From a virus (lineage: Duplodnaviria; Caudoviricetes), in the IMG/VR virus record IMGVR_UViG_2871745582_000001, positions 30,410 through 94,409 of that record: DNA of 64,000 nt; one strand, written 5' to 3'. A program made the position numbers and the translations under genes. Under the pieces are notes generated by a model. The model saw nothing but the letters and a program-made list of their open reading frames with translations. It was not told where the DNA came from and made no database searches. Below, one piece after another: positions 1 through 57,297 of the stretch (the stretch's first letter is position 1; each line of letters begins with the position of its first letter).

Positions 1-737
1 TTGAGCCGTTTGCTGGTGGCGGATCCGTATTCCTGAACGCGGGATTCAGCGAGGCGCTGGTTAACGACATCAACCCGGACCTGATCCTGACTTACCGCAT
101 GCTGAAGGAAGAGGGGCACAGCCTCATCACGCAGACGCATCGCATGTTTCAGGATTACAACACGCCGGAGGGGTTCGTCCATGTTCGCACCCGCTTCAAC
201 AAGCGTGAATACAGCGATTTTGAGCGCGCTGCAGCCTTCATCTACCTTAACCGCCACTGCTTCAACGGGCTGACGCGCTACAACCTGAAAGGCGAATTCA
301 ACGTTGGCTACGGGAAGTACAAAAAGCCTTATTTCCCGCTTGAGGAGATGGAGGGCTTTTTGTCACTTGCCGATCGCCTGACGTTCTCCTGCAGCAGCTT
401 TGCCGACGTCATAGCAACGGCCGGCGAGGGGGATGTGATTTTCTGCGATCCGCCTTATGAGCCCATGCCCGGCTCTGATGGCTTCACCTCTTACAGCGGT
501 GGCACATTCCGCTTCGAAAAGCAGGCCGAGCTGGCCGTAAGCCTCAAGGCCGCCTGTCAGCGTGGCGCCAGGGCTGTGATTACCAACAGCAGCGCGCCGG
601 CCATCATCGAACTATACCGCGGGGAAGGCTTTGAAATCCATCCGCTGTTCGCCCGCCGCTCCGTATCCTGCGCAGGCGACACCCGGGAAACGGCTGAAGA
701 CATCATCGCTTTGGTAAATTGCTCTAAAAAAGTTTGA
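1..737 (+). CDS. Dam-family DNA adenine methyltransferase, 5'-truncated by the window edge (P1 dmt-like)
   Basis: Frame is open from position 3 (EPFAGGGSVFLN, SAM-binding motif) into ORF 99..737, which has FIYLNRHCFNGL and the catalytic DPPY motif. Confidence 0.9.
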   Translation, partial: EPFAGGGSVFLNAGFSEALVNDINPDLILTYRMLKEEGHSLITQTHRMFQDYNTPEGFVHVRTRFNKREYSDFERAAAFIYLNRHCFNGLTRYNLKGEFNVGYGKYKKPYFPLEEMEGFLSLADRLTFSCSSFADVIATAGEGDVIFCDPPYEPMPGSDGFTSYSGGTFRFEKQAELAVSLKAACQRGARAVITNSSAPAIIELYRGEGFEIHPLFARRSVSCAGDTRETAEDIIALVNCSKKV

Positions 738-759
738 TTTTTATTGCTCTAATAAATTA
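718..759 (+). promoter_or_regulatory. Two tandem C1 repressor operator-like sites upstream of the tci-ban operon
   Basis: ATTGCTCTAAAAAAGTT (718-734) and ATTGCTCTAATAAATTA (743-759) match the P1 C1 operator consensus ATTGCTCTAATAAATTT. Confidence 0.8.
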
Positions 760-1747: not shown

Positions 1748-3104
1748 AGCTGCTGTAAAGATGCCTCCGCATTCTACTGAGGCGGAGCAATCCGTCCTCG
1801 GTGGACTCATGCTGGATAACGATCGCTGGGAGCAGGTTTCCGAGCGTGCCAGCGCAGGCGATTTTTTTTCCCGGCCGCACAGGCTGATTTTCGCCGAAAT
1901 GCAACGGCTGCTGGATGCAGGCCAGCCGATTGACCTGATCACGCTCTCTGAGTCGCTGGAGCGCCGCGGGGAGCTTGAGCAGGCTGGCGGCTTTGCCTAT
2001 CTGGCTGAGCTCGCCAAAAACACCCCCAGCGCTGCCAACATTAACGCTTACGCCGATATTGTGCGCGAGCGCGCCGTTGTGCGCGAGATGATCGCCGTTG
2101 CCAACCAGATAGCCGATGCCGGGTACAGCCCCCAGGGGCGCAGCAGTGCCGAACTGCTCGACTTTGCCGAATCGCGTGTTTTCCAGATTGCCGAGAGCCG
2201 CGCCAGAAAAAGCGCCGGTCCGATGGGTATAGACGCCATTCTGGATCGCACCGTTACCCGCATTGAGCAGATAGCCTGCCAGCCGCACGATGGCGTAACC
2301 GGCCTCGATACGGGCTATCACGACCTCAACAAAAAGACGGCCGGTCTGCAGCCATCAGATTTGATCATCGTGGCCGCGCGCCCGTCTATGGGTAAAACCA
2401 CATTCGCCATGAACCTGGTGGAAGCGGCGGCCATCAAAGCGGACAAGCCTGCGCTGGTATTCAGCCTTGAAATGCCTGCCGACCAGCTGATGATGCGTAT
2501 GCTTGCCTCTATGGGCAGGGTTGATCAGACCCGCATCCGCACCGGCCAGCTTGACGATGAAGACTGGTCACGGATCTCCGGCGTGATGGGTGTCTTTCTG
2601 GAAAAGAAAAATATCTATATCGACGACGCCAGCGGCCTGACGCCAACCGAACTGCGCAGCCGCGCGCGCCGCGTCTACCGTGAAAACGGCGGGCTTTCCA
2701 TGATTATGGTCGATTACCTGCAGCTGATGCGCGTGCCCGAAATGAAAGATAACCGCACGCAGGAAATCGCAGAGATCTCGCGCTCGTTAAAAGCGCTGGC
2801 CAAAGAGCTCAACGTGCCGGTAGTGGCGCTGTCGCAGCTGAACCGCTCGCTCGAAAATCGCTCCGACAAGCGCCCGGTTAATTCAGATTTGCGCGAATCC
2901 GGCTCTATTGAGCAGGACGCCGACCTCATCATGTTTATTTACCGCGATGAGGTTTATCACGAAAACAGCGACCAGAAAGGGATCGCGGAAATCATTATCG
3001 GCAAGCAGCGTAACGGGCCGATCGGCACCGTTCGCCTTGCATTTAACGGCCAGTGGTCGCGGTTTGATAATTACGCCGGACCACAATATGAGGAAGGGCA
3101 CTGA
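1737..3104 (+). CDS. ban: DnaB-like replicative helicase (Ban)
   Basis: PPHSTEAEQSVLG, Walker A AARPSMGKT, VDYLQLM, SDLRESGSIEQDAD, KQRNGP. Confidence 0.95.
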   Translation: MPNEAAVKMPPHSTEAEQSVLGGLMLDNDRWEQVSERASAGDFFSRPHRLIFAEMQRLLDAGQPIDLITLSESLERRGELEQAGGFAYLAELAKNTPSAANINAYADIVRERAVVREMIAVANQIADAGYSPQGRSSAELLDFAESRVFQIAESRARKSAGPMGIDAILDRTVTRIEQIACQPHDGVTGLDTGYHDLNKKTAGLQPSDLIIVAARPSMGKTTFAMNLVEAAAIKADKPALVFSLEMPADQLMMRMLASMGRVDQTRIRTGQLDDEDWSRISGVMGVFLEKKNIYIDDASGLTPTELRSRARRVYRENGGLSMIMVDYLQLMRVPEMKDNRTQEIAEISRSLKALAKELNVPVVALSQLNRSLENRSDKRPVNSDLRESGSIEQDADLIMFIYRDEVYHENSDQKGIAEIIIGKQRNGPIGTVRLAFNGQWSRFDNYAGPQYEEGH

Positions 3105-17227: not shown

Positions 17228-18277
17228 TTAGTTGTCTTCCAGTATGCGCACCATGGCGCTGCCTTCAGATTCCAGGTTACGGATATAGGCGATCACCATC
17301 TCCACGCGAGACCAGCCGCCCGCCTGCATAATCTCCGTCACCGATACACCAGCGCGCGCCATATCAACCGCGGCGCCAACGCGCGCACTGTGGCCAGACC
17401 AAGCCTGATAGCGCAAATCGGTCTTTTTCTTCCTGCCGTGCAGGCGTGAGTGCGCCGATTCAAACAGGGCTTCAAGCGAGCGGGGCGTTAATGGCTTCTC
17501 AGCAGACGGAACCGGCGCGCCATTTTTAAGGATGCGGCAGAACAGATAATTATCCGGATCTTCCATCACGCCGGACACCTGCATCCAGCTGTCCACCAGC
17601 CCGGTAATGTCACGGCTCAGAGTCTTGAGTGTGCCCGCCGTGCTGACCAGCGTTTTGGTACGGCCAACACGGATCTGAATGCGCCCTTCATCCGTGCGGG
17701 TAATGTCTTTGGCACGAATGCGGGATATTTCACTGATACGTAGTAGCGTGTTATACGCCAGCCCCAGGAATGCCAGCTCCCTAATCTCGGCGATTTCTTC
17801 TGTGCCGGCCAGCCGCCCGCGCAGCTTATCCAGATCGCGGCGCTGGAATGGCAGCGCCTGACCAGCCTGCTCGCCAGAGTCCACGTTCTCGCGCCGGATG
17901 CGGCGCATAACCAGGCTGACCGCGTTAGAATCGCTGGGCCGCGCCAGCCCGGCGCGCTTGTGGATGATATTGAGCATCTGCAGGTGCATGGTAATGGTTT
18001 TCACCGCCCGCCCCGCCGCCTGCAGGTGAAGCAGGTAATCCCTCACATCTTCCGACTGCGCCGGGAACCAGACGCGGCCACCCTCCTGGCACCAGGCGGA
18101 CCACTGGCGCGCCACCTGCATCAGCATCTTCCAGGTGTGCTCAGAAAAGCCGGTTTTGTCCCGGAACAGTTCGAACAGGTTGCGGCGCACCTCATCGCTG
18201 GTGGCCTCGACTGGCAGTGCGGGAAGATTGATATGAACGGGCGACGAATCAATCAGCGCCATGCTGTTTTTGGTCAT
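17228..18277 (-). CDS. cre: Cre-like tyrosine recombinase
   Basis: LPALPVEATSDEVRRNL, FSEHTWKML, and catalytic LLRISEI, RTKT, WSGHSARVG, AGGW, YIRNL. Confidence 0.95.
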   Translation of the reverse strand: MTKNSMALIDSSPVHINLPALPVEATSDEVRRNLFELFRDKTGFSEHTWKMLMQVARQWSAWCQEGGRVWFPAQSEDVRDYLLHLQAAGRAVKTITMHLQMLNIIHKRAGLARPSDSNAVSLVMRRIRRENVDSGEQAGQALPFQRRDLDKLRGRLAGTEEIAEIRELAFLGLAYNTLLRISEISRIRAKDITRTDEGRIQIRVGRTKTLVSTAGTLKTLSRDITGLVDSWMQVSGVMEDPDNYLFCRILKNGAPVPSAEKPLTPRSLEALFESAHSRLHGRKKKTDLRYQAWSGHSARVGAAVDMARAGVSVTEIMQAGGWSRVEMVIAYIRNLESEGSAMVRILEDN

Positions 18278-18285
18278 GATATTCC

Positions 18286-18504
18286 CTAAATAATGCGCGT
18301 CAGCAGCGACCAGAGAAGCGGGAATGATTTTTCCCTTTCCCCGGCAGCGTTGAAATAGGCCCAGCGCCCACGCCACAGCCGTATTGTCCCGTCACGGCGG
18401 GTAAGATGCCAGCCCTCTTTGACAAAACCTTTGGCGCGCCAGATGCCGCGCATTTTTTCAAGTTCCTGATTCTGGGCTACGTTCAAAGCTTTTTCAGATG
18501 ACAT
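18286..18504 (-). CDS. Hypothetical basic protein
   Basis: MSSEKALNV start with GAGG RBS, directly upstream of cre. Confidence 0.5.
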   Translation of the reverse strand: MSSEKALNVAQNQELEKMRGIWRAKGFVKEGWHLTRRDGTIRLWRGRWAYFNAAGEREKSFPLLWSLLTRII

Positions 18505-20849: not shown

Positions 20850-20944
20850 GAATTTTTTAGAGCAATGCATTATCGCCTTGCTGATTGCAAAATGACCACA
20901 TACGGAAATCGTGAATTGACTGTAGCTCTAATCAAATATAATTT
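20850..20944. promoter_or_regulatory. Divergent C1 operator-like sites and a putative rightward promoter for the RNA array
   Basis: Minus ATTGCTCTAAAAAATT (20851-20866); plus GTAGCTCTAATCAAATA (20922-20938) between TTGACT (20916-20921) and TATAAT/TAATTT (20937-20944). Confidence 0.6.
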
Positions 20945-21073
20945 ACGAACGGTCGGCAACGCAGGATGCGTTACTAAGCGCCAGGATGGCCGCCAGCAGT
21001 TCTGTAACATCAGGTGACCAGCCTACGGGCCTCCTTCACGTCTGCCAGTACGTGGATCAATACTGGCAACCCT

Positions 21074-21149
21074 GGCTCCTTAGCTCAGTTGGTAGAGCGG
21101 CACGTTGAAGGCGTGCGCGTCGCTGGTTCAATTCCAGCAGGAGCCACCA
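21074..21149 (+). tRNA. tRNA-Phe(GAA)
   Basis: GGCTCCT/AGGAGCC acceptor, anticodon arm GCACG-TTGAAGG-CGTGC, T loop TTCAATT, encoded CCA; 76 nt. Confidence 0.9.
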
Positions 21150-21368
21150 TCATTAAGCGCACTATCAAACATCTTCGGCCTGGCGAAGTGGCGTAAAAGC
21201 TGGTGGTAGTGCGCTTAATGATGGGTGATTGCGGCCATGCGGCGCATTGAAGTAAAGGTTCCGCCCGGATCCTGACCTGATATGTCCCGCTGGCCACCAG
21301 CATCTATCCGGGTGACGCTTCCCGACAGACGTCCGCGCCCACTGCGCAGTGTGGGGAATACTGATTAT

Positions 21369-21443
21369 GGGTAGGTCGTATAAAGGCTATTACGGTTGGC
21401 TGTTAACCAACTTATCCGGGTTCGAATCCCGGCCTTCCCGCCA
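21369..21443 (+). tRNA. tRNA-Asn(GTT)
   Basis: Anticodon arm GTTGG-CTGTTAA-CCAAC, T arm CCGGG-TTCGAAT-CCCGG, ends GCCA; one U:U mismatch in the acceptor stem. Confidence 0.85.
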
Positions 21444-21552
21444 ACACAACAGGTAAGCAGCCTGACGAATGAACCGCCTGGCGGGGCGCTCGTGTTGTGA
21501 AACAGGCTGCTTTCCGTTGTGAAGATTTCCGCCTCTCCTACGGGGATCTGCT

Positions 21553-21622
21553 GGTGGCGTAGCATAACTAGTAATGCAGGACGTCATAAACCCGCATATC
21601 GGTGCAAATCCGATCGCCACCA
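21553..21622 (+). ncRNA. tRNA-like RNA / pseudo-tRNA with disrupted anticodon arm
   Basis: Perfect acceptor GGTGGCG/CGCCACC, D stem GCAT/ATGC, T arm ATCGG-TGCAAAT-CCGAT; anticodon region GGACGTCATAAACCCGC cannot form a 5-bp stem; no CCA after the discriminator. Confidence 0.6.
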
Positions 21623-21978
21623 CACAACACACAACGGTGAGAGCCCTGCATTGGTCATGACAGATGAGCCATTGGCAGCAATAGCAAAGAAGCTGCGCCT
21701 GGTTAGCCAGTGCTCTCAACCGTTGTGGTGATTAAAGCCCGGCAACCTTTCACGTTGCGCAGGGGAAACAGTCAGAGCGCGGACTGGAGGGAAACGGCGT
21801 TACTGCGGCATGAAAGGGTCGCCACTACAACACTAACCCGCAGGCTGGTTCAGTCTTCATAGACCATCAGTGCCTGCGCCGGATGGGGTAACCGGCACAC
21901 AATGGTGAGAGGGCTGAACAACAGGCGAGAACCGGCTAACCCGTAATGCCATCCGGTCGGGCAGCTCTCTCAACCATT

Positions 21979-22120
21979 GTGGTGAATGCGCAGGCTGAAG
22001 CGCCATGTATGGGTGGTTCGACAATCGGCATTGCCATCCAGAGGCGACCTTTGCCGGATAGGTTGACGCCCCTGCGAGTATCTGGAAACGAACGCCGGAG
22101 ACCAGCACCGGCCACCACAA
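21979..22120 (+). ncRNA. Structured tRNA-like ncRNA unit (acceptor-like helix plus GCCGG-N9-CCGGC arm)
   Basis: GTGGTG...CACCAC closing helix next to GCCGG-AGACCAGCA-CCGGC; paralogous to 22966-23090. Confidence 0.55.
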
Positions 22121-22125
22121 ACCAA

Positions 22126-22189
22126 TTTGCACGGCCGGAGAGCTGGCCAGCGTGAAAGCGACTGCCGGGAATAAGCGCCGGCGTGCAAA
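22126..22189 (+). ncRNA. 64-nt mini-cloverleaf RNA
   Basis: TTTGCAC/GTGCAAA closing stem, GGCCGG-AGAG-CTGGCC arm, short middle arm, GCCGG-GAATAAGCG-CCGGC arm. Confidence 0.5.
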
Positions 22190-22195
22190 CATTCT

Positions 22196-22271
22196 GGCCC
22201 TTTAGCTCAGCGGTTAGAGCAGGCGGCTCATAACCGCTTTGTCGCCGGTTCAAACCCGGCAAGGGCCACCA
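22196..22271 (+). tRNA. tRNA-Ile2(CAT), lysidine type (Met not excluded)
   Basis: GGCCCTT/AAGGGCC acceptor, CTCATAA loop, close resemblance to enterobacterial ileX; encoded CCA. Confidence 0.88.
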
Positions 22272-22965
22272 GCTTTTGCAGCCAGGCTGACAACGTACTG
22301 TCGTAAACACTGCATTCCTCAATGAGTTGGCTAACTTGAGGCGGGGGCACTCCCTGTAATGTAGGTCCGACCTGCGGACGAGACGAGTGATAGCCGTCCA
22401 TCTGGTAAGTGGCTTAGTGCCTGCAACTGGATGGAATGGCAAGGGTGACGGGCGGAGAGAGTGCCGCACACAACGGAAAGAGCATTGATGAGTTGACGCC
22501 AGACCCAACGCTTAACGGCGTCAGGGATAGGATACAAATGAACAATGCTCTTCCCGTTGTGGTGACACAACAGATAGTTTTCATCAGGCAATGCGGCTGT
22601 TTTTATCATCTAAAGATAAATGCAAACGATGATCTGATGTTGGCAGCGGCCTAAGAAACCAAACGCCACGGGGTATTCCAGTTCCCCGCCACCGAATCTG
22701 GCGCACTGGCCCGGTGTGATTCCGAATGGGCACTTACTCAAACGTACCCTCGGCGGGTTCGATTCCCGACTAGGCCCGGACGGCGACGGGGAGGGTCCAT
22801 TTGAGTGGGTAACAACGGGCATATCGCCTTAGTAAATCCCGCATCGGTGCTGGGTTAATCGCCAGCCGTCCGCTCCACGAAACGGAGCACACAACAGGCA
22901 AGAGCATTAACACCTGGCCGATGCATTCAATCAGAACGAGTGCATATTGGTTTAGTGCTCTTGCC

Positions 22966-23090
22966 GTTGTGGCGATTGCGCCTGCTGAGGCGACCCCGGA
23001 ACGCGGCCGATCCCGAGGGGTGGAAGTGGCGAATATCGGGAAAAGAAGGCACTGCATTCCCTGCCGGAGATCAGCCCCGGCCGTCACAAC
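22966..23090 (+). ncRNA. Structured tRNA-like ncRNA unit, paralog of 21979-22120
   Basis: GTTGTGGCG/CGTCACAAC closing helix; 5' TGCG.C.GCTGA.GCG; 3' GCCGG-AGATCAGCC-CCGGC. Confidence 0.55.
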
Positions 23091-23339
23091 TCAGGCCCGT
23101 AATTGTTATGCCAGTGATCCCTGCTGGTGGCCGTAAGTGGGGCATATGGCACATGTGGGCGCGGAGTCAGGCCGATAAACCTTTTTCGGCTATATGGTTA
23201 TCCGATTAAAGCAGAATGTGTAAGCCAGGGCTTTTCTGTTCTGCCTATTGAGCGCTTAGACAGCGCGGCGATTCGTCTTGACGGCTGGAAGAGACAGCAA
23301 ACAACAGTTAAGCGCACTGCGCCAGGAAAGGCAGCGCGC

Positions 23340-23603
23340 TTAACTATTCTTTTTGGCGTTGTAAAAACCCAGGATGATTTGCGCCAGCTCATCTTCATCT
23401 TCAGGCGTGTAGAGGTATGACACAGGAACGTTGAGAACCCGGGCAATTTTTCGCGCTGTGTCAAACGAAGGGCTATTGGTTCCGCTCTCGTAATAGGAAA
23501 TGCGGGAGCGGGCAGTAGATTCATCGATCCCCACCAGCACCCCTAATTTTTCCTGAGTTAAATTGGCCCTGTGACGAGCCTCTCTGAGTCGGGCTGGAAC
23601 CAT
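23340..23603 (-). CDS. Xre-family HTH regulator
   Basis: RLREARHRANLTQEKLG...RISYYESG..SPSF. Confidence 0.88.
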   Translation of the reverse strand: MVPARLREARHRANLTQEKLGVLVGIDESTARSRISYYESGTNSPSFDTARKIARVLNVPVSYLYTPEDEDELAQIILGFYNAKKNS

Positions 23604-24182: not shown

Positions 24183-24261
24183 AAAAAACAATTTTTTAGA
24201 GATCTTATTCTGACAACGATCTACTATTGCCCGACAACAGATACTAATTTTGGAGCATATA

Positions 24262-25110
24262 GTGGTCGATTACATCAAGGGTGAAACGCTTTATCGCGAA
24301 TTCATTGAATTCCGTTATGGCTTCATTAGCCGTGCTATCGCGCGCGCGAGCCATACTGATGTTACCAGCGACGGTCGCCAGGTGCGGCCGGTTGTTGTTT
24401 TACCCTTCCGCGAAGTTGAAAAGATTCAGGTTGAGATCGACCGGTGGTCTGCGCTGGTGGCTGAACTTGAGCAATACCCGGATCTGGGCATCCCTAAAAC
24501 TCTGCTCTACCCCATCCCGGCTATCATTCGCGGAGTGCGCAAGGCTACGGCTTACAATACAGAAGCTATTAACAGCCGGAACGTTACCGCTGGCCACCTT
24601 GTTCATCTCATTGATAAAGACATCCGCGGACAGAAAAAAGGGCCAGTGACTCCTGCGGCAGAGGCCTACATTGCCAGCCTTGAGAAGGCACGCAAACAGC
24701 TCGCTTCTTACCCGGACGATGAGCCTATGCGCATGCGTATTCACGGCTACCGCGAAACGTTGCTGAACCTCAATTACATATCCACCAGCCCCAACTATAA
24801 AAATGGCCGGAAACAGTCCTATCACGTCCCGGCATGCGGCGTATTCATCTGCGATGAGACCTTGCGTGATGGCCTGACAATTGGCCCCAGCACTGAAAAG
24901 CAGCCATACAGCGTTTACGATGCTGTCGAGCCGATCACCTGCAGCCGCTGGCCAACAGCGAAAATTTACCGCACCGCTGATATTGAAGAGGTCAAAGCCT
25001 CCCGCACAGACGGCGCGGATGCAGAAACGCCTAAATCACTGACAGAATCCCCGCGCGCTCATAAGGCGTCCCGCAAAATTAAAACCGCTCTGCCAGTAAG
25101 CGGGCAGTAA
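24262..25110 (+). CDS. c1: C1 primary repressor
   Basis: SDGRQVRPVVVLPF, ELEQYPDLGIPKT, HLIDKDIR, CGVFICDETLRDG match P1 C1; GTG start with GGAG RBS. Confidence 0.92.
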   Translation: MVDYIKGETLYREFIEFRYGFISRAIARASHTDVTSDGRQVRPVVVLPFREVEKIQVEIDRWSALVAELEQYPDLGIPKTLLYPIPAIIRGVRKATAYNTEAINSRNVTAGHLVHLIDKDIRGQKKGPVTPAAEAYIASLEKARKQLASYPDDEPMRMRIHGYRETLLNLNYISTSPNYKNGRKQSYHVPACGVFICDETLRDGLTIGPSTEKQPYSVYDAVEPITCSRWPTAKIYRTADIEEVKASRTDGADAETPKSLTESPRAHKASRKIKTALPVSGQ

Positions 25111-44656: not shown

Positions 44657-45085
44657 TTACGGCCGGACTAAATCTTCAACTTCTTTATCCAGCGAATCGT
44701 ATTCATATTCTTCATCATCTGCCGCTGGCGTGACGGGCAAAAGATGGTAGGCAGAGTAAATCTGGCCGTTATCGAACCGCTCCTGACTGTACAGCGTCGC
44801 GGCTATCAGGGTCAGTGCCGGACGGGGGAAATGGTAGATATGTCGCACGTCCCGGTCGATGAGGCGGCCGAAATTGCCATAACCCGCATTGAGAAGCAAA
44901 CGCTTTATTTCAGGCCAGTAGGGGCCGTAGCTGCGGTACAGGCGCGGGCTTTTTAACAGCCGGTCCCTGAGCCCCTTGAGGAAGAAGTTTACATAATCTT
45001 CTTCGCTTTTTCCCTGTAGCGCGGTTTTTAACAAACCTTCCAGATAAATCGGATTCGGCTTGACGGTATCAGATAATGTCGCCAT
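44657..45085 (-). CDS. ulx: Ulx, DarB packaging helper
   Basis: MATLSDT.KPN, RLYRSYGPYWPEIK, RPALTLIAATLYS. Confidence 0.85.
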   Translation of the reverse strand: MATLSDTVKPNPIYLEGLLKTALQGKSEEDYVNFFLKGLRDRLLKSPRLYRSYGPYWPEIKRLLLNAGYGNFGRLIDRDVRHIYHFPRPALTLIAATLYSQERFDNGQIYSAYHLLPVTPAADDEEYEYDSLDKEVEDLVRP

Positions 45086-57211: not shown

Positions 57212-57297
57212 ATTGCTCTAACACATTTTGCATTCACCATCATAAATCTTGTCCTTTGTTGCTCTGAAAGGATGTGTTATTTTGCTCTAATAAATTT
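57212..57297 (+). promoter_or_regulatory. C1 operator-like sites upstream of the ssb operon
   Basis: ATTGCTCTAACACATTT (57212-57228) and TTTGCTCTAATAAATTT (57281-57297). Confidence 0.75.

What the first reader, a model, noticed from the sequence alone, without database searches (positions are those of the whole stretch)
21445..22971. Five hairpins with conserved, covarying arms around unrelated inserts (repeat/spacer-like)
Seen arms: CACAACAGGTAAGCAGCCTG/CAGGCTGCTTTCCGTTGTG (21445-21521), CACAACGGTGAGAGCCCTG/CAGTGCTCTCAACCGTTGTG (21630-21727), CACAATGGTGAGAGGGCTG/CAGCTCTCTCAACCATTGTG (21898-21981), CACAACGGAAAGAGCATTG/CAATGCTCTTCCCGTTGTG (22469-22561), CACAACAGGCAAGAGCATTAA/TTAGTGCTCTTGCCGTTGTG (22890-22971). 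Changes are compensatory (AACGG/CCGTT to AATGG/CCATT; GCAGCC/GGCTGC), so structure is selected. The 38-59 nt inserts differ and each has its own small internal stem. Inference: the ~19-bp stems fit RNase III substrates; cleavage would free both the flanking units and the variable apical inserts, which could themselves be guide or antisense RNAs.
Basis: partly seen in the sequence, partly recalled or inferred. Interest (0 to 1): 0.8.

Follow-up and report, generated by a model that had tools for sequence, protein, structure and literature searches.

The report
Conserved phage RNA punctuation hairpins
The five hairpins are real members of a large, unannotated family of RNA stem-loops that separate tRNAs and other small RNAs in untranslated regions of P1-like and lambda-like phages, most likely as cutting sites for the host enzyme RNase III.

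Summary
Observation confirmed: five hairpins at the stated coordinates (5 matches against 0.02 expected; fold z -4.35 to -9.02). A sixth, diverged copy lies at 21147-21224, and a family-derived terminator at 23299-23352.

The window is a P1-like phage-plasmid. The hairpins punctuate a 2.3-kb untranslated + strand array: three tRNAs, one tRNA-like RNA, a tmRNA-like tag-coding RNA and two copies of a tRNA-shaped RNA.

The same hairpin family (about 19 bp of conserved stem, a bulged A, a U.U mismatch, a U.G wobble, a 25-80 nt variable top) occurs in P1, HK620, phage lambda just after tR', more than 120 viral contigs and 19 Enterobacterales genomes. It is unannotated and matches no Rfam family.

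Covariation, G.U strand bias, co-orientation with tRNAs in 39 of 39 loci and flush contact with tRNA ends place it at the RNA level.

RNase III processing is the best reading. Support is indirect: stem geometry, and a 1988 paper, seen by title only, reporting RNase III sites in the lambda late transcript.

The guide or antisense idea found no support.

The parts
20850..20942 (+). Probable control region of the array. It holds a P1 C1-operator-like site (20850-20866, minus strand, 2 mismatches) and a TTGACT/TATAAT pair with a 15-nt spacer (20916-20942).
   Evidence: 12 operator-like sites in the window against 0.09 expected. Sequence read. The promoter scan did not call it. That this region controls the array is an inference.
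21074..21149 (+). tRNA-Phe (GAA)
   Evidence: 63.3 bits.
21147..21224 (+). Diverged family hairpin (H0), flush with and overlapping the CCA end of tRNA-Phe.
   Evidence: I2: 21-nt arms, 95% complementary; z -8.28.
21369..21443 (+). tRNA-Asn (GTT)
21445..21521 (+). Hairpin H1. It has the bulged A and the U.U mismatch of the family consensus and starts 1 nt after tRNA-Asn.
21553..21622 (+). tRNA-like RNA ending in CCA, followed by a CACAACA half-site (21623-21629).
   Evidence: Rfam tRNA, 40.6 bits against a gathering score of 29. ARAGORN does not call it.
21630..21727 (+). Hairpin H2.
21728..21897 (+). Unnamed RNA module. It ends in a T-arm-like stem-loop, GCCGGATGGGGTAACCGGC, 1 nt before H3.
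   Evidence: Sequence. The stem-loop class is enriched just before hairpins (36 of 97 contexts against 195 of 1940 random positions).
21898..21981 (+). Hairpin H3, with base pair C-G changed to U-A.
   Evidence: Its insert has a clear relative in L107/L048 (score 36 against a null maximum of 21).
21982..22120 (+). 'G-unit' copy 1, a tRNA-shaped RNA. It starts GTGAATGCGCAGGCTGA and ends GCCGGAGACCAGCACCGGCCACCACAA. The closing helix uses the 3' base of H3.
   Evidence: (D6).
22196..22271 (+). tRNA with anticodon CAT (Met/Ile2 type).
   Evidence: 68.8 bits.
22469..22561 (+). Hairpin H4.
   Evidence: (I1).
22556..22571 (+). Empty junction GTTGTG-GTGA-CACAAC: the 3' base of a hairpin pairs with a solitary 5' base motif.
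   Evidence: (listed as a small stem) and sequence.
22572..22735 (+). tmRNA-like module with a 10-codon tag frame (22622-22654, ANDDLMLAAA then stop) and no tRNA-like domain.
22736..22889 (+). Unnamed module. It holds a T-arm-like GGGTTCGATTCCC and ends in the stem-loop GCTCCACGAAACGGAGC 2 nt before H5.
   Evidence: D12; H16, Proteus phage match.
22890..22971 (+). Hairpin H5.
22972..23090 (+). 'G-unit' copy 2. Its closing helix shows the compensatory change GCG/CGT.
   Evidence: (D6).
23299..23357 (+). Terminator of the array. Its 5' arm, ACAACAGTTAAGCGCAC, resembles the family arm; a U-run replaces GTTGTG.
   Evidence: I3, D5; z -3.21.

Best explanation
The hairpins are RNA-level punctuation elements of a phage 'RNA island'.

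A promoter that is probably repressed by C1 drives one long untranslated + strand transcript, which ends at the terminator at 23299-23357. In it, each hairpin is a stem of about 19-20 bp and fixed geometry. From the base upward the stem has CACAAC/GUUGUG, usually a bulged A, a U.U mismatch and a U.G wobble, and it carries a variable top.

The hairpins sit flush against the ends of tRNAs and of other small structured RNAs.

The most likely mechanism is that host RNase III cuts the stem. This splits the precursor into units. RNase P then trims the 5' ends of the tRNAs and tRNA-shaped units, and 3' exonucleases trim back to CCA.

Because the arms are nearly identical between hairpins and between phages, they also act as portable homology. 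Through it, RNA modules are shuffled among P1-like, lambda-like and P22-like phages.

Shown: the structure, its RNA-level selection, its strand, its position relative to tRNAs, its spread, and the shuffling of modules.

Inferred: transcription as a single unit, C1 control, RNase III as the enzyme, and the order of processing steps. The role of the variable tops is unknown.
For: 1. Real structure. One search gives 5 matches against 0.02 expected. One search gives z of -4.35 to -9.02.

2. Family-wide covariation on 97 of my 98 distinct arm pairs. One likely false positive, L012:11289-11385, was dropped. 94.5% of cells pair, 15 of 19 pairs change on both sides, and the score is 0.305 against 0.114 shuffled (0 of 500) and at most 0.081 slid.

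3. The diverged members are not an artefact of my stability filter. 68 of 114 non-canonical hairpins lie within 500 nt of a hairpin found by pattern alone, where 0.71 spurious hits are expected.

4. RNA on the tRNA strand.
- The bulged-A orientation agrees with the tRNA strand in 39 of the 39 loci where both could be read, out of 136 loci.
- The + strand fold is the more stable in 82 of 98 arm pairs.
- G.U pairs number 128 on the + fold against 49 on the - fold.

5. Fixed length. The basal helix has a median of 19 bp and an interquartile range of 18-21. In 76 hairpins fetched by pattern alone, position 20 of the 5' arm pairs in 68 of 76 (shuffled mean 41.5) and the next position in 35 of 76 (shuffled mean 31.2). 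E. coli RNase III accommodates about 22 bp (PMC6212723, passages).

6. Flush contact with tRNAs. The distance from a tRNA 3' end to the hairpin is -2 to +2 in nearly all arrays; the one exception is +17. One hairpin overlaps tRNA-Arg by 3 nt. 16 of 113 distinct upstream contexts are a tRNA.

7. A hairpin this stable directly after CCA would block 3' exonucleases, so an endonucleolytic cut is needed. This rests on established knowledge of tRNA 3' maturation in E. coli, not on a call.

8. Phage lambda carries a family member at NC_001416 44787-44862, directly after tR'. With its extension it is the longest inverted repeat in the late leader. Daniels et al. [quoted passage not shown]

9. Module shuffling. 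The same insert family appears with different neighbours, and the same neighbours with different hairpins. In many phage records only the hairpin part of the lambda query is conserved, query positions 9-90 at 90-97% identity.
Against: - No cleavage or expression data could be obtained. No RNA run was listed, and I could not read the 1988 paper, so its coordinates may not fall in this hairpin.
- RNase III does not need a conserved sequence. Yet the base motif, the bulged A, the U.U mismatch (48 of 68 canonical unique hairpins; 56 of 97) and the U.G wobble (62 of 97) are kept. This points to a more specific partner, or to a second function.
- Lambda has a single hairpin and no tRNA to release, so 'separating small RNAs' cannot be the whole story.
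- The tops are kept as families across phages, which suggests they do something themselves.
- GTTGTG can also pair with the next CACAAC to close the module in between. Compensatory changes such as ATG/CAT and GCG/CGT support this. RNase P acting on tRNA-shaped modules could therefore do the cutting instead of, or beside, RNase III.
- My hairpin finder has a measured false-positive rate of about 31 per 5.35 Mb per strand on the GC-rich host genome. About 7 of the 225 non-window hairpins may be spurious.
Confidence: 0.5

Rival explanations
1. The hairpins are small RNAs in their own right. The conserved stem is a protective and recognisable scaffold. The hypervariable top is the working part, for example a tRNA mimic, a protein decoy or an anti-defence RNA. 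The neighbouring tRNA-processing enzymes merely set them free. This can coexist with RNase III cutting.
For: - There are 64 insert families among 117 unique hairpins.
- Some are kept across distant phages. The lambda type occurs in 58 phage records with diverged flanks. The H3 insert has a clear relative.
- Several tops carry T-arm-like GGTTCGAATCC motifs and fold like D-armless tRNAs (families 5, 6, 17).
- Lambda keeps a lone hairpin with nothing to separate.
- tRNA ends abut the stem base, so RNase P and 3' trimming would release the hairpin intact.
Against: - No expression data.
- Only 1 of the 5 window inserts has a clear relative. Three are at the edge of the null and one has none.
- No Rfam family, YrlA included, matches the window hairpins.
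- No target or partner could be named.
Confidence: 0.25
2. The elements work at the DNA level as boundaries of RNA-gene cassettes. Either they are sites of a site-specific recombinase, like integron attC sites, or simply shared 20-bp homologies at which phage recombinases swap modules.
For: - Modules recombine in many combinations, with junctions at the hairpin base.
- The window holds an empty junction, GTTGTG-GTGA-CACAAC (22556-22571), and a duplicated CACAACA (21623-21629).
- The layout recalls attC sites: conserved inverted ends containing AAC/GTT, an imperfect stem with a bulge, and a variable centre.
- Arms are more alike within one phage than between distant hosts. Aeromonas phage pAh6-C has its own arm sequence on both sides of the same tag module.
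Against: - Strand asymmetry fits RNA, not DNA: G.U pairs 128 against 49, and the + fold more stable in 82 of 98.
- Orientation always follows the tRNAs (39 of 39).
- The attC R-box consensus RYYYAAC/GTTRRRY, recalled from memory, is not met by ACACAAC/GTTGTGG.
- The only tyrosine recombinase near the array scores 27.5 bits against XerC (cut-off 335) and matches no integron-integrase model above cut-off.
- Lambda, P1 and HK620 have no integron integrase (established knowledge).
- Shuffling can be a by-product of homology.
Confidence: 0.1
3. One reading: a repeat/spacer-like array whose variable inserts are guide or antisense RNAs against host or competing mobile-element transcripts.
For: - Conserved arms surround variable inserts.
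- A stem of about 19 bp could release the top after RNase III cleavage.
Against: - The arms are inverted, not direct.
- No cas genes are known in P1, lambda or HK620 (established knowledge).
- blastn-short of the five inserts against the 5.35-Mb host genome gives nothing better than E = 0.17. Matches to other mobile elements were not searched.
- Identical inserts are shared by many phages, which is the opposite of acquired spacers.
Confidence: 0.05
4. The hairpins are transcription signals: terminators, pause sites or processive antitermination RNAs that protect a long untranslated transcript from Rho.
For: - They lie in long untranslated transcripts that would be exposed to Rho.
- The last hairpin of the array is a family-like stem turned into an intrinsic terminator (23299-23357).
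- In lambda the hairpin follows tR' directly.
Against: - None of the five has a U-run; all are followed by GTG and the next RNA. The terminator scan calls none of them.
- Five to seven copies per array are not needed for antitermination.
- Sequence-specific conservation of the stem is not explained.
Confidence: 0.04

Closest known systems
RNase III processing sites of the phage lambda late (pR') transcript (Daniels, Subbarao, Blattner, Lozeron 1988, Virology 167:568; title seen only in the reference list of PMC7547250)
   Same: Lambda carries a member of this hairpin family in exactly that leader, at NC_001416 44787-44862, right after tR'. If the mapped sites lie in it, the family is a set of RNase III sites.
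   Different: I could not see the mapped coordinates. None of the papers I could search describes a family, its variable tops, or its use between tRNAs in P1-like arrays.
RNase III sites between genes of the phage T7 early transcript, and the processing stems of rRNA operons (established knowledge)
   Same: Conserved hairpins with internal non-Watson-Crick features separate functional units of one polycistronic transcript. The host enzyme does the cutting.
   Different: Here the units are tRNAs and small RNAs rather than mRNAs or rRNAs. The stem carries a 25-80 nt hypervariable top. The stem base (CACAAC/GUUGUG) can also pair across the neighbouring module.
Integron attC sites
   Same: Imperfect inverted repeats with conserved ends containing AAC...GTT, a bulged base, a variable centre and a length of 57-141 bp. 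They bound exchangeable cassettes, and the sites of one array resemble each other.
   Different: The R-box consensus is not met and no integron integrase is present. The asymmetry follows transcription and G.U pairing. The cassettes are RNA genes of 70-490 nt.
tRNA-miRNA-encoding RNAs (TMERs) of murine gammaherpesvirus 68 (recalled)
   Same: A virus places hairpins flush against tRNA(-like) units, so that tRNA-processing enzymes release them.
   Different: That is a eukaryotic virus with RNase Z and Dicer. No sequence relation exists. Here no downstream small-RNA machinery is known.
CRISPR repeat-spacer arrays
   Same: Conserved repeated sequence alternates with variable sequence, and RNase III is used in some systems.
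   Different: Here the repeats are inverted pairs forming one stem. There are no cas genes. Inserts are shared between phages rather than acquired. tRNAs and other RNAs lie between the hairpins.
Correia/nemis elements of Neisseria and other miniature inverted-repeat elements (recalled)
   Same: Short elements with terminal inverted repeats are transcribed into hairpins, and some are cut by RNase III.
   Different: Those are scattered over the chromosome with a common core. These occur only in phage RNA islands: the own-genome copies lie in the plasmid array and in two other loci, C64 next to phage-type repressor genes and C56 unexamined. They have 64 different cores.

Membership tests
RNase III processing hairpin | Double-stranded stem of about two helical turns (about 20-22 bp) | tested here: met
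   The basal helix has a median of 19 bp, interquartile range 18-21, n = 117. The stem ends after position 20 of the 5' arm. The enzyme's valley holds about 22 bp (PMC6212723, passages).
RNase III processing hairpin | rnc-dependent cleavage in the stem leaving 2-nt 3' overhangs | not testable with these tools
   No RNA run was listed. The Daniels 1988 paper is not held.
RNase III processing hairpin | Lies between functional units of one transcript | tested here: met
   The hairpins are flush with tRNAs and small RNAs on the same strand. That there is a single transcript is inferred.
Integron attC site | R'' RYYYAAC and R' GTTRRRY core sites (consensus recalled) | tested here: not met
   The family consensus is ACACAAC / GTTGTGG. 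H3 has AAT/ATT, and HK620 has GGTGTG.
Integron attC site | Integron integrase beside the array | tested here: not met
   The recombinase at 17228-18376 scores 27.5 bits against XerC (cut-off 335) and matches no integron-integrase model above cut-off.
CRISPR array | Direct repeats in one orientation separated by spacers | tested here: not met
   The arms are reverse complements of each other and pair within one hairpin.
Intrinsic terminator | GC-rich stem followed by a U-run | tested here: not met
   None of the five is called by the terminator scan. Only the last, family-like hairpin at 23299-23357 has a U-run.
Any Rfam family (release 15) | Score at or above the gathering cut-off | tested here: not met
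   Only tRNAs pass in the window. Scans at E up to 10 and of the P1, HK620, lambda and pAh6-C loci at E up to 1 give no real hit on any hairpin.
Miniature inverted-repeat element (MITE/REP-like) | Many copies scattered over the chromosome, with a common core | tested here: not met
   In the own genome the family-like copies lie in the plasmid array and in two other loci, C64 and C56. There are 64 insert families among 117 unique hairpins.
tmRNA (for the tag module at 22572-22735) | Tag reading frame starting at a GCA resume codon and ending in a hydrophobic AA-type tail | tested here: met
   All 34 distinct variants have 10 codons plus a stop: ANDDLMLAAA, ANDDLMMVAA, ANEEMYLAVA and others, with synonymous differences. 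The host tag is ANDENYALAA.
tmRNA (for the tag module at 22572-22735) | tRNA-like domain with an alanine acceptor stem, T-arm and CCA end | tested here: not met
   ARAGORN finds no tmRNA in the window. Rfam tmRNA models score 16-24 bits against cut-offs of 47-84, and only over the tag region.

The most novel reading that the evidence does not exclude
Temperate enterobacterial phages (lambda, P1, HK620 and their relatives) carry a modular 'RNA cassette' system. A conserved 20-bp stem acts as a universal scaffold and processing handle, and it displays an open repertoire of at least 64 kinds of small apical RNA domain. These stand beside tRNAs, tRNA-shaped RNAs and a tmRNA mimic that has a tag frame but no tRNA-like domain. 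The cassettes are released by host RNase III and RNase P and are swapped between phages through the shared arms. Together they would form a fast-evolving set of RNA decoys or tRNA mimics aimed at host translation-targeting defences.
Probability: 0.2. Interest if true: 0.9.

Novelty: new variant of a known kind. Interest (0 to 1): 0.68.

Why it matters
A conserved structured RNA element sits unannotated in the two best-studied temperate phages, lambda and P1. A lambda-type query that includes the hairpin matches 705 of 5426 complete E. coli genomes.

If the hairpins are RNase III handles, they explain how phages mature tRNAs and small RNAs from long untranslated transcripts. They would also give a ready rule for finding new phage small RNAs: whatever lies between GTTGTG and CACAAC.

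Following them has already exposed two further RNA families that I could not find described:
- a tRNA-shaped 'G-unit';
- a tmRNA-like RNA with a conserved 10-codon tag frame but no tRNA-like domain. This raises a directly testable question about phage interference with ribosome rescue.

The conserved-stem, variable-top design may also serve as a natural scaffold for expressing small RNAs.

Tried and rejected
- **Close relatives of the array.** I searched 60 related genomes.
- **Plasmid collection**. One irrelevant tRNA-sized match.
- **E. coli K-12 MG1655.** No copy was found by either of two searches: the unbulged-form pattern and the consensus 5' arm with up to 3 mismatches. Published K-12 RNase III maps therefore cannot help.
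- **RNA evidence.** The look-up of sequencing runs with a lambda-identical stretch listed no RNA holder.
- **GcvB sponge idea.** The 5' base CACAACA equals the GcvB R1 target consensus named by Tree et al. 2014 (PMC4104026, passages). But predicted duplexes of all five 5' arms with the host's own GcvB are no better than shuffles (z -0.11 to -1.44). Rejected.
- **AgvB, AsxR and the Pas sRNAs.** They are terminator-bearing Hfq sRNAs. The Rfam models for AgvB and AsxR do not hit the array. Not the same thing.
- **Antisense targets in the host genome.** Nothing above chance.
- **Sigma-70 promoter scan.** No call before the array.
- **Earlier findings of this scan.** Closed.
- **Literature.** Ten searches found no paper holding the arm, G-unit or tag sequences, and none describing the hairpins. 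The P1 genome paper and Daniels 1988 are not held. Old lambda and P1 papers, and supplements I could not open, may hold relevant maps.
- **Scoring against the RNase III in vivo motif** of PMC6212723. Not possible: the matrix is in a figure and a supplement.
Full report
**1.

Reading the window, the repeat finder and a pattern search of the host genome show the five hairpins at the stated coordinates. A loose end-pattern finds 5 copies in the window where 0.02 are expected. Each folds far better than its shuffles, with z from -4.35 to -9.02.

One is a sixth, diverged copy at 21147-21224 (z -8.28) that overlaps the CCA end of tRNA-Phe. The other is a closing hairpin at 23299-23357 whose 5' arm resembles the family arm but which ends in a U-run, that is, a terminator.

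**2. Context.**

The region 20870-23360 has no convincing reading frame. On the + strand it holds:
- tRNA-Phe, tRNA-Asn and a tRNA with anticodon CAT;
- a fourth tRNA-like RNA, seen only by Rfam at 40.6 bits.

The window is a P1-like phage-plasmid. It encodes:
- a C1 repressor homologue at 24250-25110 (392 bits);
- a DarB-like giant protein, PmgS, portal and tail proteins, and a Ban-like helicase;
- terminase, ParM and a tyrosine recombinase.

Twelve P1 C1-operator-like sites lie in the window against 0.09 expected. One is 208 nt upstream of tRNA-Phe, next to a TTGACT/TATAAT pair. Control of the array by C1 is therefore likely, but it is an inference.

**3. The hairpins belong to a large family.**

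A stretch between H4 and H5 matched unannotated DNA of HK620, Klebsiella, Salmonella and Aeromonas phages. Reading those loci showed the same kind of hairpin beside it.

Pattern scans then found:
- three copies in the leader of the P1 ban operon;
- one copy in the HK620 late leader;
- one copy in phage lambda itself, directly after tR', at NC_001416 44787-44862.

A 271-base lambda-type query that includes the hairpin matches 705 of 5426 complete E. coli genomes, and a 91-base query over the hairpin matches 58 phage records. MG1655 gave no match to the two patterns searched.

Among one genome per species, 40 have the canonical form. Of these, 21 are identical to lambda in non-enteric, low-coverage assemblies and look like lambda DNA contamination. 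The other 19 are all Enterobacterales. No record annotates the hairpin as an RNA. Rfam has no family for it.

**4. Anatomy of the family.**

My script collected 230 hairpins in 136 loci: 117 unique sequences and 98 distinct arm pairs.

The consensus is 5' CACAACAGGTAAGAGCATTG ... CAGTGCTCTTTCCGTTGTG 3'.

On 97 sequences, with one likely false positive dropped:
- 94.5% of cells pair;
- 15 of 19 pairs show changes on both sides;
- the covariation score is 0.305, against 0.114 in shuffles (0 of 500 reach it) and at most 0.081 when the partners are slid.

Three non-Watson-Crick features are kept:
- an extra A after CACAAC;
- a U.U mismatch (56 of 97; 48 of 68 canonical unique hairpins);
- a U.G wobble (62 of 97).

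There is a caveat. My finder selects stable stems, and on the GC-rich host genome it gives about 31 unrelated hits per 5.35 Mb per strand. About 7 of the 225 non-window hairpins may therefore be spurious. Against that, 68 of the 114 non-canonical hairpins lie within 500 nt of a hairpin found by pattern alone, where 0.71 are expected. The diverged members are real array partners.

In the set fetched by pattern alone, the one freely varying stem position pairs in 68 of 76 (shuffled mean 41.5). The next position does not (35 of 76, shuffled mean 31.2). The stem therefore has a fixed end. The basal helix has a median of 19 bp.

**5. RNA, not DNA.**

- The asymmetric bulged-A form points the same way as the neighbouring tRNAs in 39 of the 39 loci where both can be read.
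- The + strand fold is the more stable in 82 of 98 arm pairs, and G.U pairs number 128 against 49.
- Hairpins start -2 to +2 nt from the 3' end of a tRNA in nearly all arrays. One type overlaps the 5' end of tRNA-Arg by 3 nt.

**6. What lies between the hairpins.**

Arrays are built from interchangeable modules: tRNAs (Asn, Thr, Tyr, Arg, Ser, Met/Ile, Phe, Gly), a tag module, a 'G-unit' and several unnamed RNAs. The same hairpin type occurs with different neighbours, and the reverse.

Many modules end in a stem-loop of T-arm size, 0-2 nt before the next hairpin (36 of 97 non-tRNA contexts against 195 of 1940 random positions).

The G-unit begins directly after a hairpin. Its 3' end, CACCACAA, can pair with the GTTGTG-GTG that includes the hairpin's 3' base. 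Compensatory changes are seen there (ATG/CAT in several lineages, GCG/CGT in the window). Its T-like hairpin also covaries.

So GTTGTG can close either the hairpin or the following tRNA-shaped module. The hairpin is far more stable, and within-hairpin changes are Watson-Crick (H3). Even so, the alternative pairing offers RNase P a substrate.

**7. Mechanism.**

A stable hairpin directly after CCA would block the 3' exonucleases that finish tRNAs, so an endonuclease must open it. The stem has the length RNase III needs (about 22 bp; PMC6212723, passages).

The lambda member, with its extension, is the longest inverted repeat of the late leader. [quoted passage not shown] The paper itself is not held, so the coordinates remain unchecked.

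I therefore favour RNase III punctuation at 0.5. RNase P and exonucleases would finish the units. The shared arms would act as homology for module exchange.

The kept sequence and the kept non-canonical features, the lone hairpin in lambda and the conserved insert families leave room for a second role of the hairpins as RNAs in their own right (0.25).

**8. The inserts.**

There are 64 families among 117 unique hairpins.

Of the five window inserts:
- one (H3) has a clear relative elsewhere;
- three are at the edge of the null;
- one has none.

None matches the host genome above chance. Some tops elsewhere carry T-arm motifs.

The lambda-type hairpin, insert included, is 90-100% identical in 55 of 58 matching phage records. 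In the Klebsiella, Shigella and Salmonella phage rows listed, the match stops at the hairpin's edges. That speaks for a unit that is either selected or mobile, and against acquired spacers.

**9. Comparison with known systems.**

- Closest in working: RNase III sites of phage polycistronic transcripts and of rRNA operons.
- Closest in form: integron attC sites, but two defining features fail (core consensus and integrase), and the strand bias fits RNA.
- CRISPR, miniature inverted-repeat elements, terminators and all Rfam families fail their tests (see the membership table).

Ten literature searches found no description. Old lambda and P1 papers that I could not read may hold one.

**10. Verdict.**

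The structural inference is right. RNase III is plausible and now has an indirect anchor in lambda. The guide-RNA idea is unsupported.

What is new is the family itself: a conserved stem with hypervariable tops, used as punctuation in phage RNA islands from lambda to P1. With it come the two RNA modules it led to.

Noticed in passing
window 22572-22735 (tag frame 22622-22654); also L020 2445-2477 (P1 ban leader), L006 3016-3048 (HK620), L007 about 3040-3080 (Aeromonas phage pAh6-C): A tmRNA-like RNA with a conserved 10-codon tag frame and no tRNA-like domain. Tags are ANDDLMLAAA here, ANDDLMMVAA in P1 and ANEEMYLAVA in HK620. All 34 distinct variants have 10 codons plus a stop, with synonymous differences. 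ARAGORN and the Rfam cut-offs miss it. The tmRNA Website paper (PMC4131195, passages) lists phage ssrA only in mycobacteriophages and Bacillus phage G.
   Followed up: partly
window 21982-22120 and 22972-23090; own genome C64:272095-272215; L006 3233-3320: A 'G-unit': an RNA family of 76-224 nt that starts right after a hairpin (GTGAATGCGCAGGCTGATGCGC) and ends in a covarying hairpin plus CACCACAA. The shape is tRNA-like, with a closing helix, a D-like hairpin and a T-like hairpin. No Rfam match.
   Followed up: partly
window 21553-21622: A tRNA-like RNA with acceptor stem, D-arm, T-arm and CCA but an irregular anticodon arm. Rfam gives 40.6 bits; ARAGORN is silent.
   Followed up: no
L020 2973-3542 (P1 plp and upl, minus strand): The annotated P1 genes plp and upl lie opposite the conserved + strand hairpins at L020 3004-3090 and 3227-3326, and opposite a G-unit. 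The RNA elements may be the real content of this stretch.
   Followed up: no
own genome C64:270300-272350, C64:262060-262139, C56:143028-143103: A second locus in the same genome (C64, beside HTH and LexA/S24-type repressor-like genes by eye) carries two hairpins and a G-unit downstream of the repressor-like gene. Two more family-like hairpins lie elsewhere.
   Followed up: partly
L164, L165, L169, L170, L172-L176, L179, L181, L185, L188, L189, L191-L193, L195, L199, L200, L202: Twenty-one species-representative assemblies of non-enteric bacteria (Pseudomonas, Bacillaceae, Bradyrhizobium, actinomycetes and others) hold a hairpin identical to lambda's. It sits on short or roughly 48-kb low-coverage contigs, which most likely means lambda DNA contamination.
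   Followed up: partly
window 718-759, 13644, 17169, 20850, 31071, 37376, 40294, 44123, 44388, 57212-57297: Twelve P1 C1-operator-like sites (0.09 expected) mark a P1-type immunity regulon in this plasmid.
   Followed up: no
L162 1053-1066 with 1134-1147 (lambda 44852-44946): In lambda the 3' base of the hairpin (TTTCCGTTGTGCTG) can also pair with CAGCACAACCCAAA 67 nt downstream. This encloses a small module, the same toggle seen in the arrays.
   Followed up: no
L020 3581-3700: A sub-threshold STnc100 match (33.4 bits, cut-off 47) in the P1 ban operon between upl and tciA.
   Followed up: no
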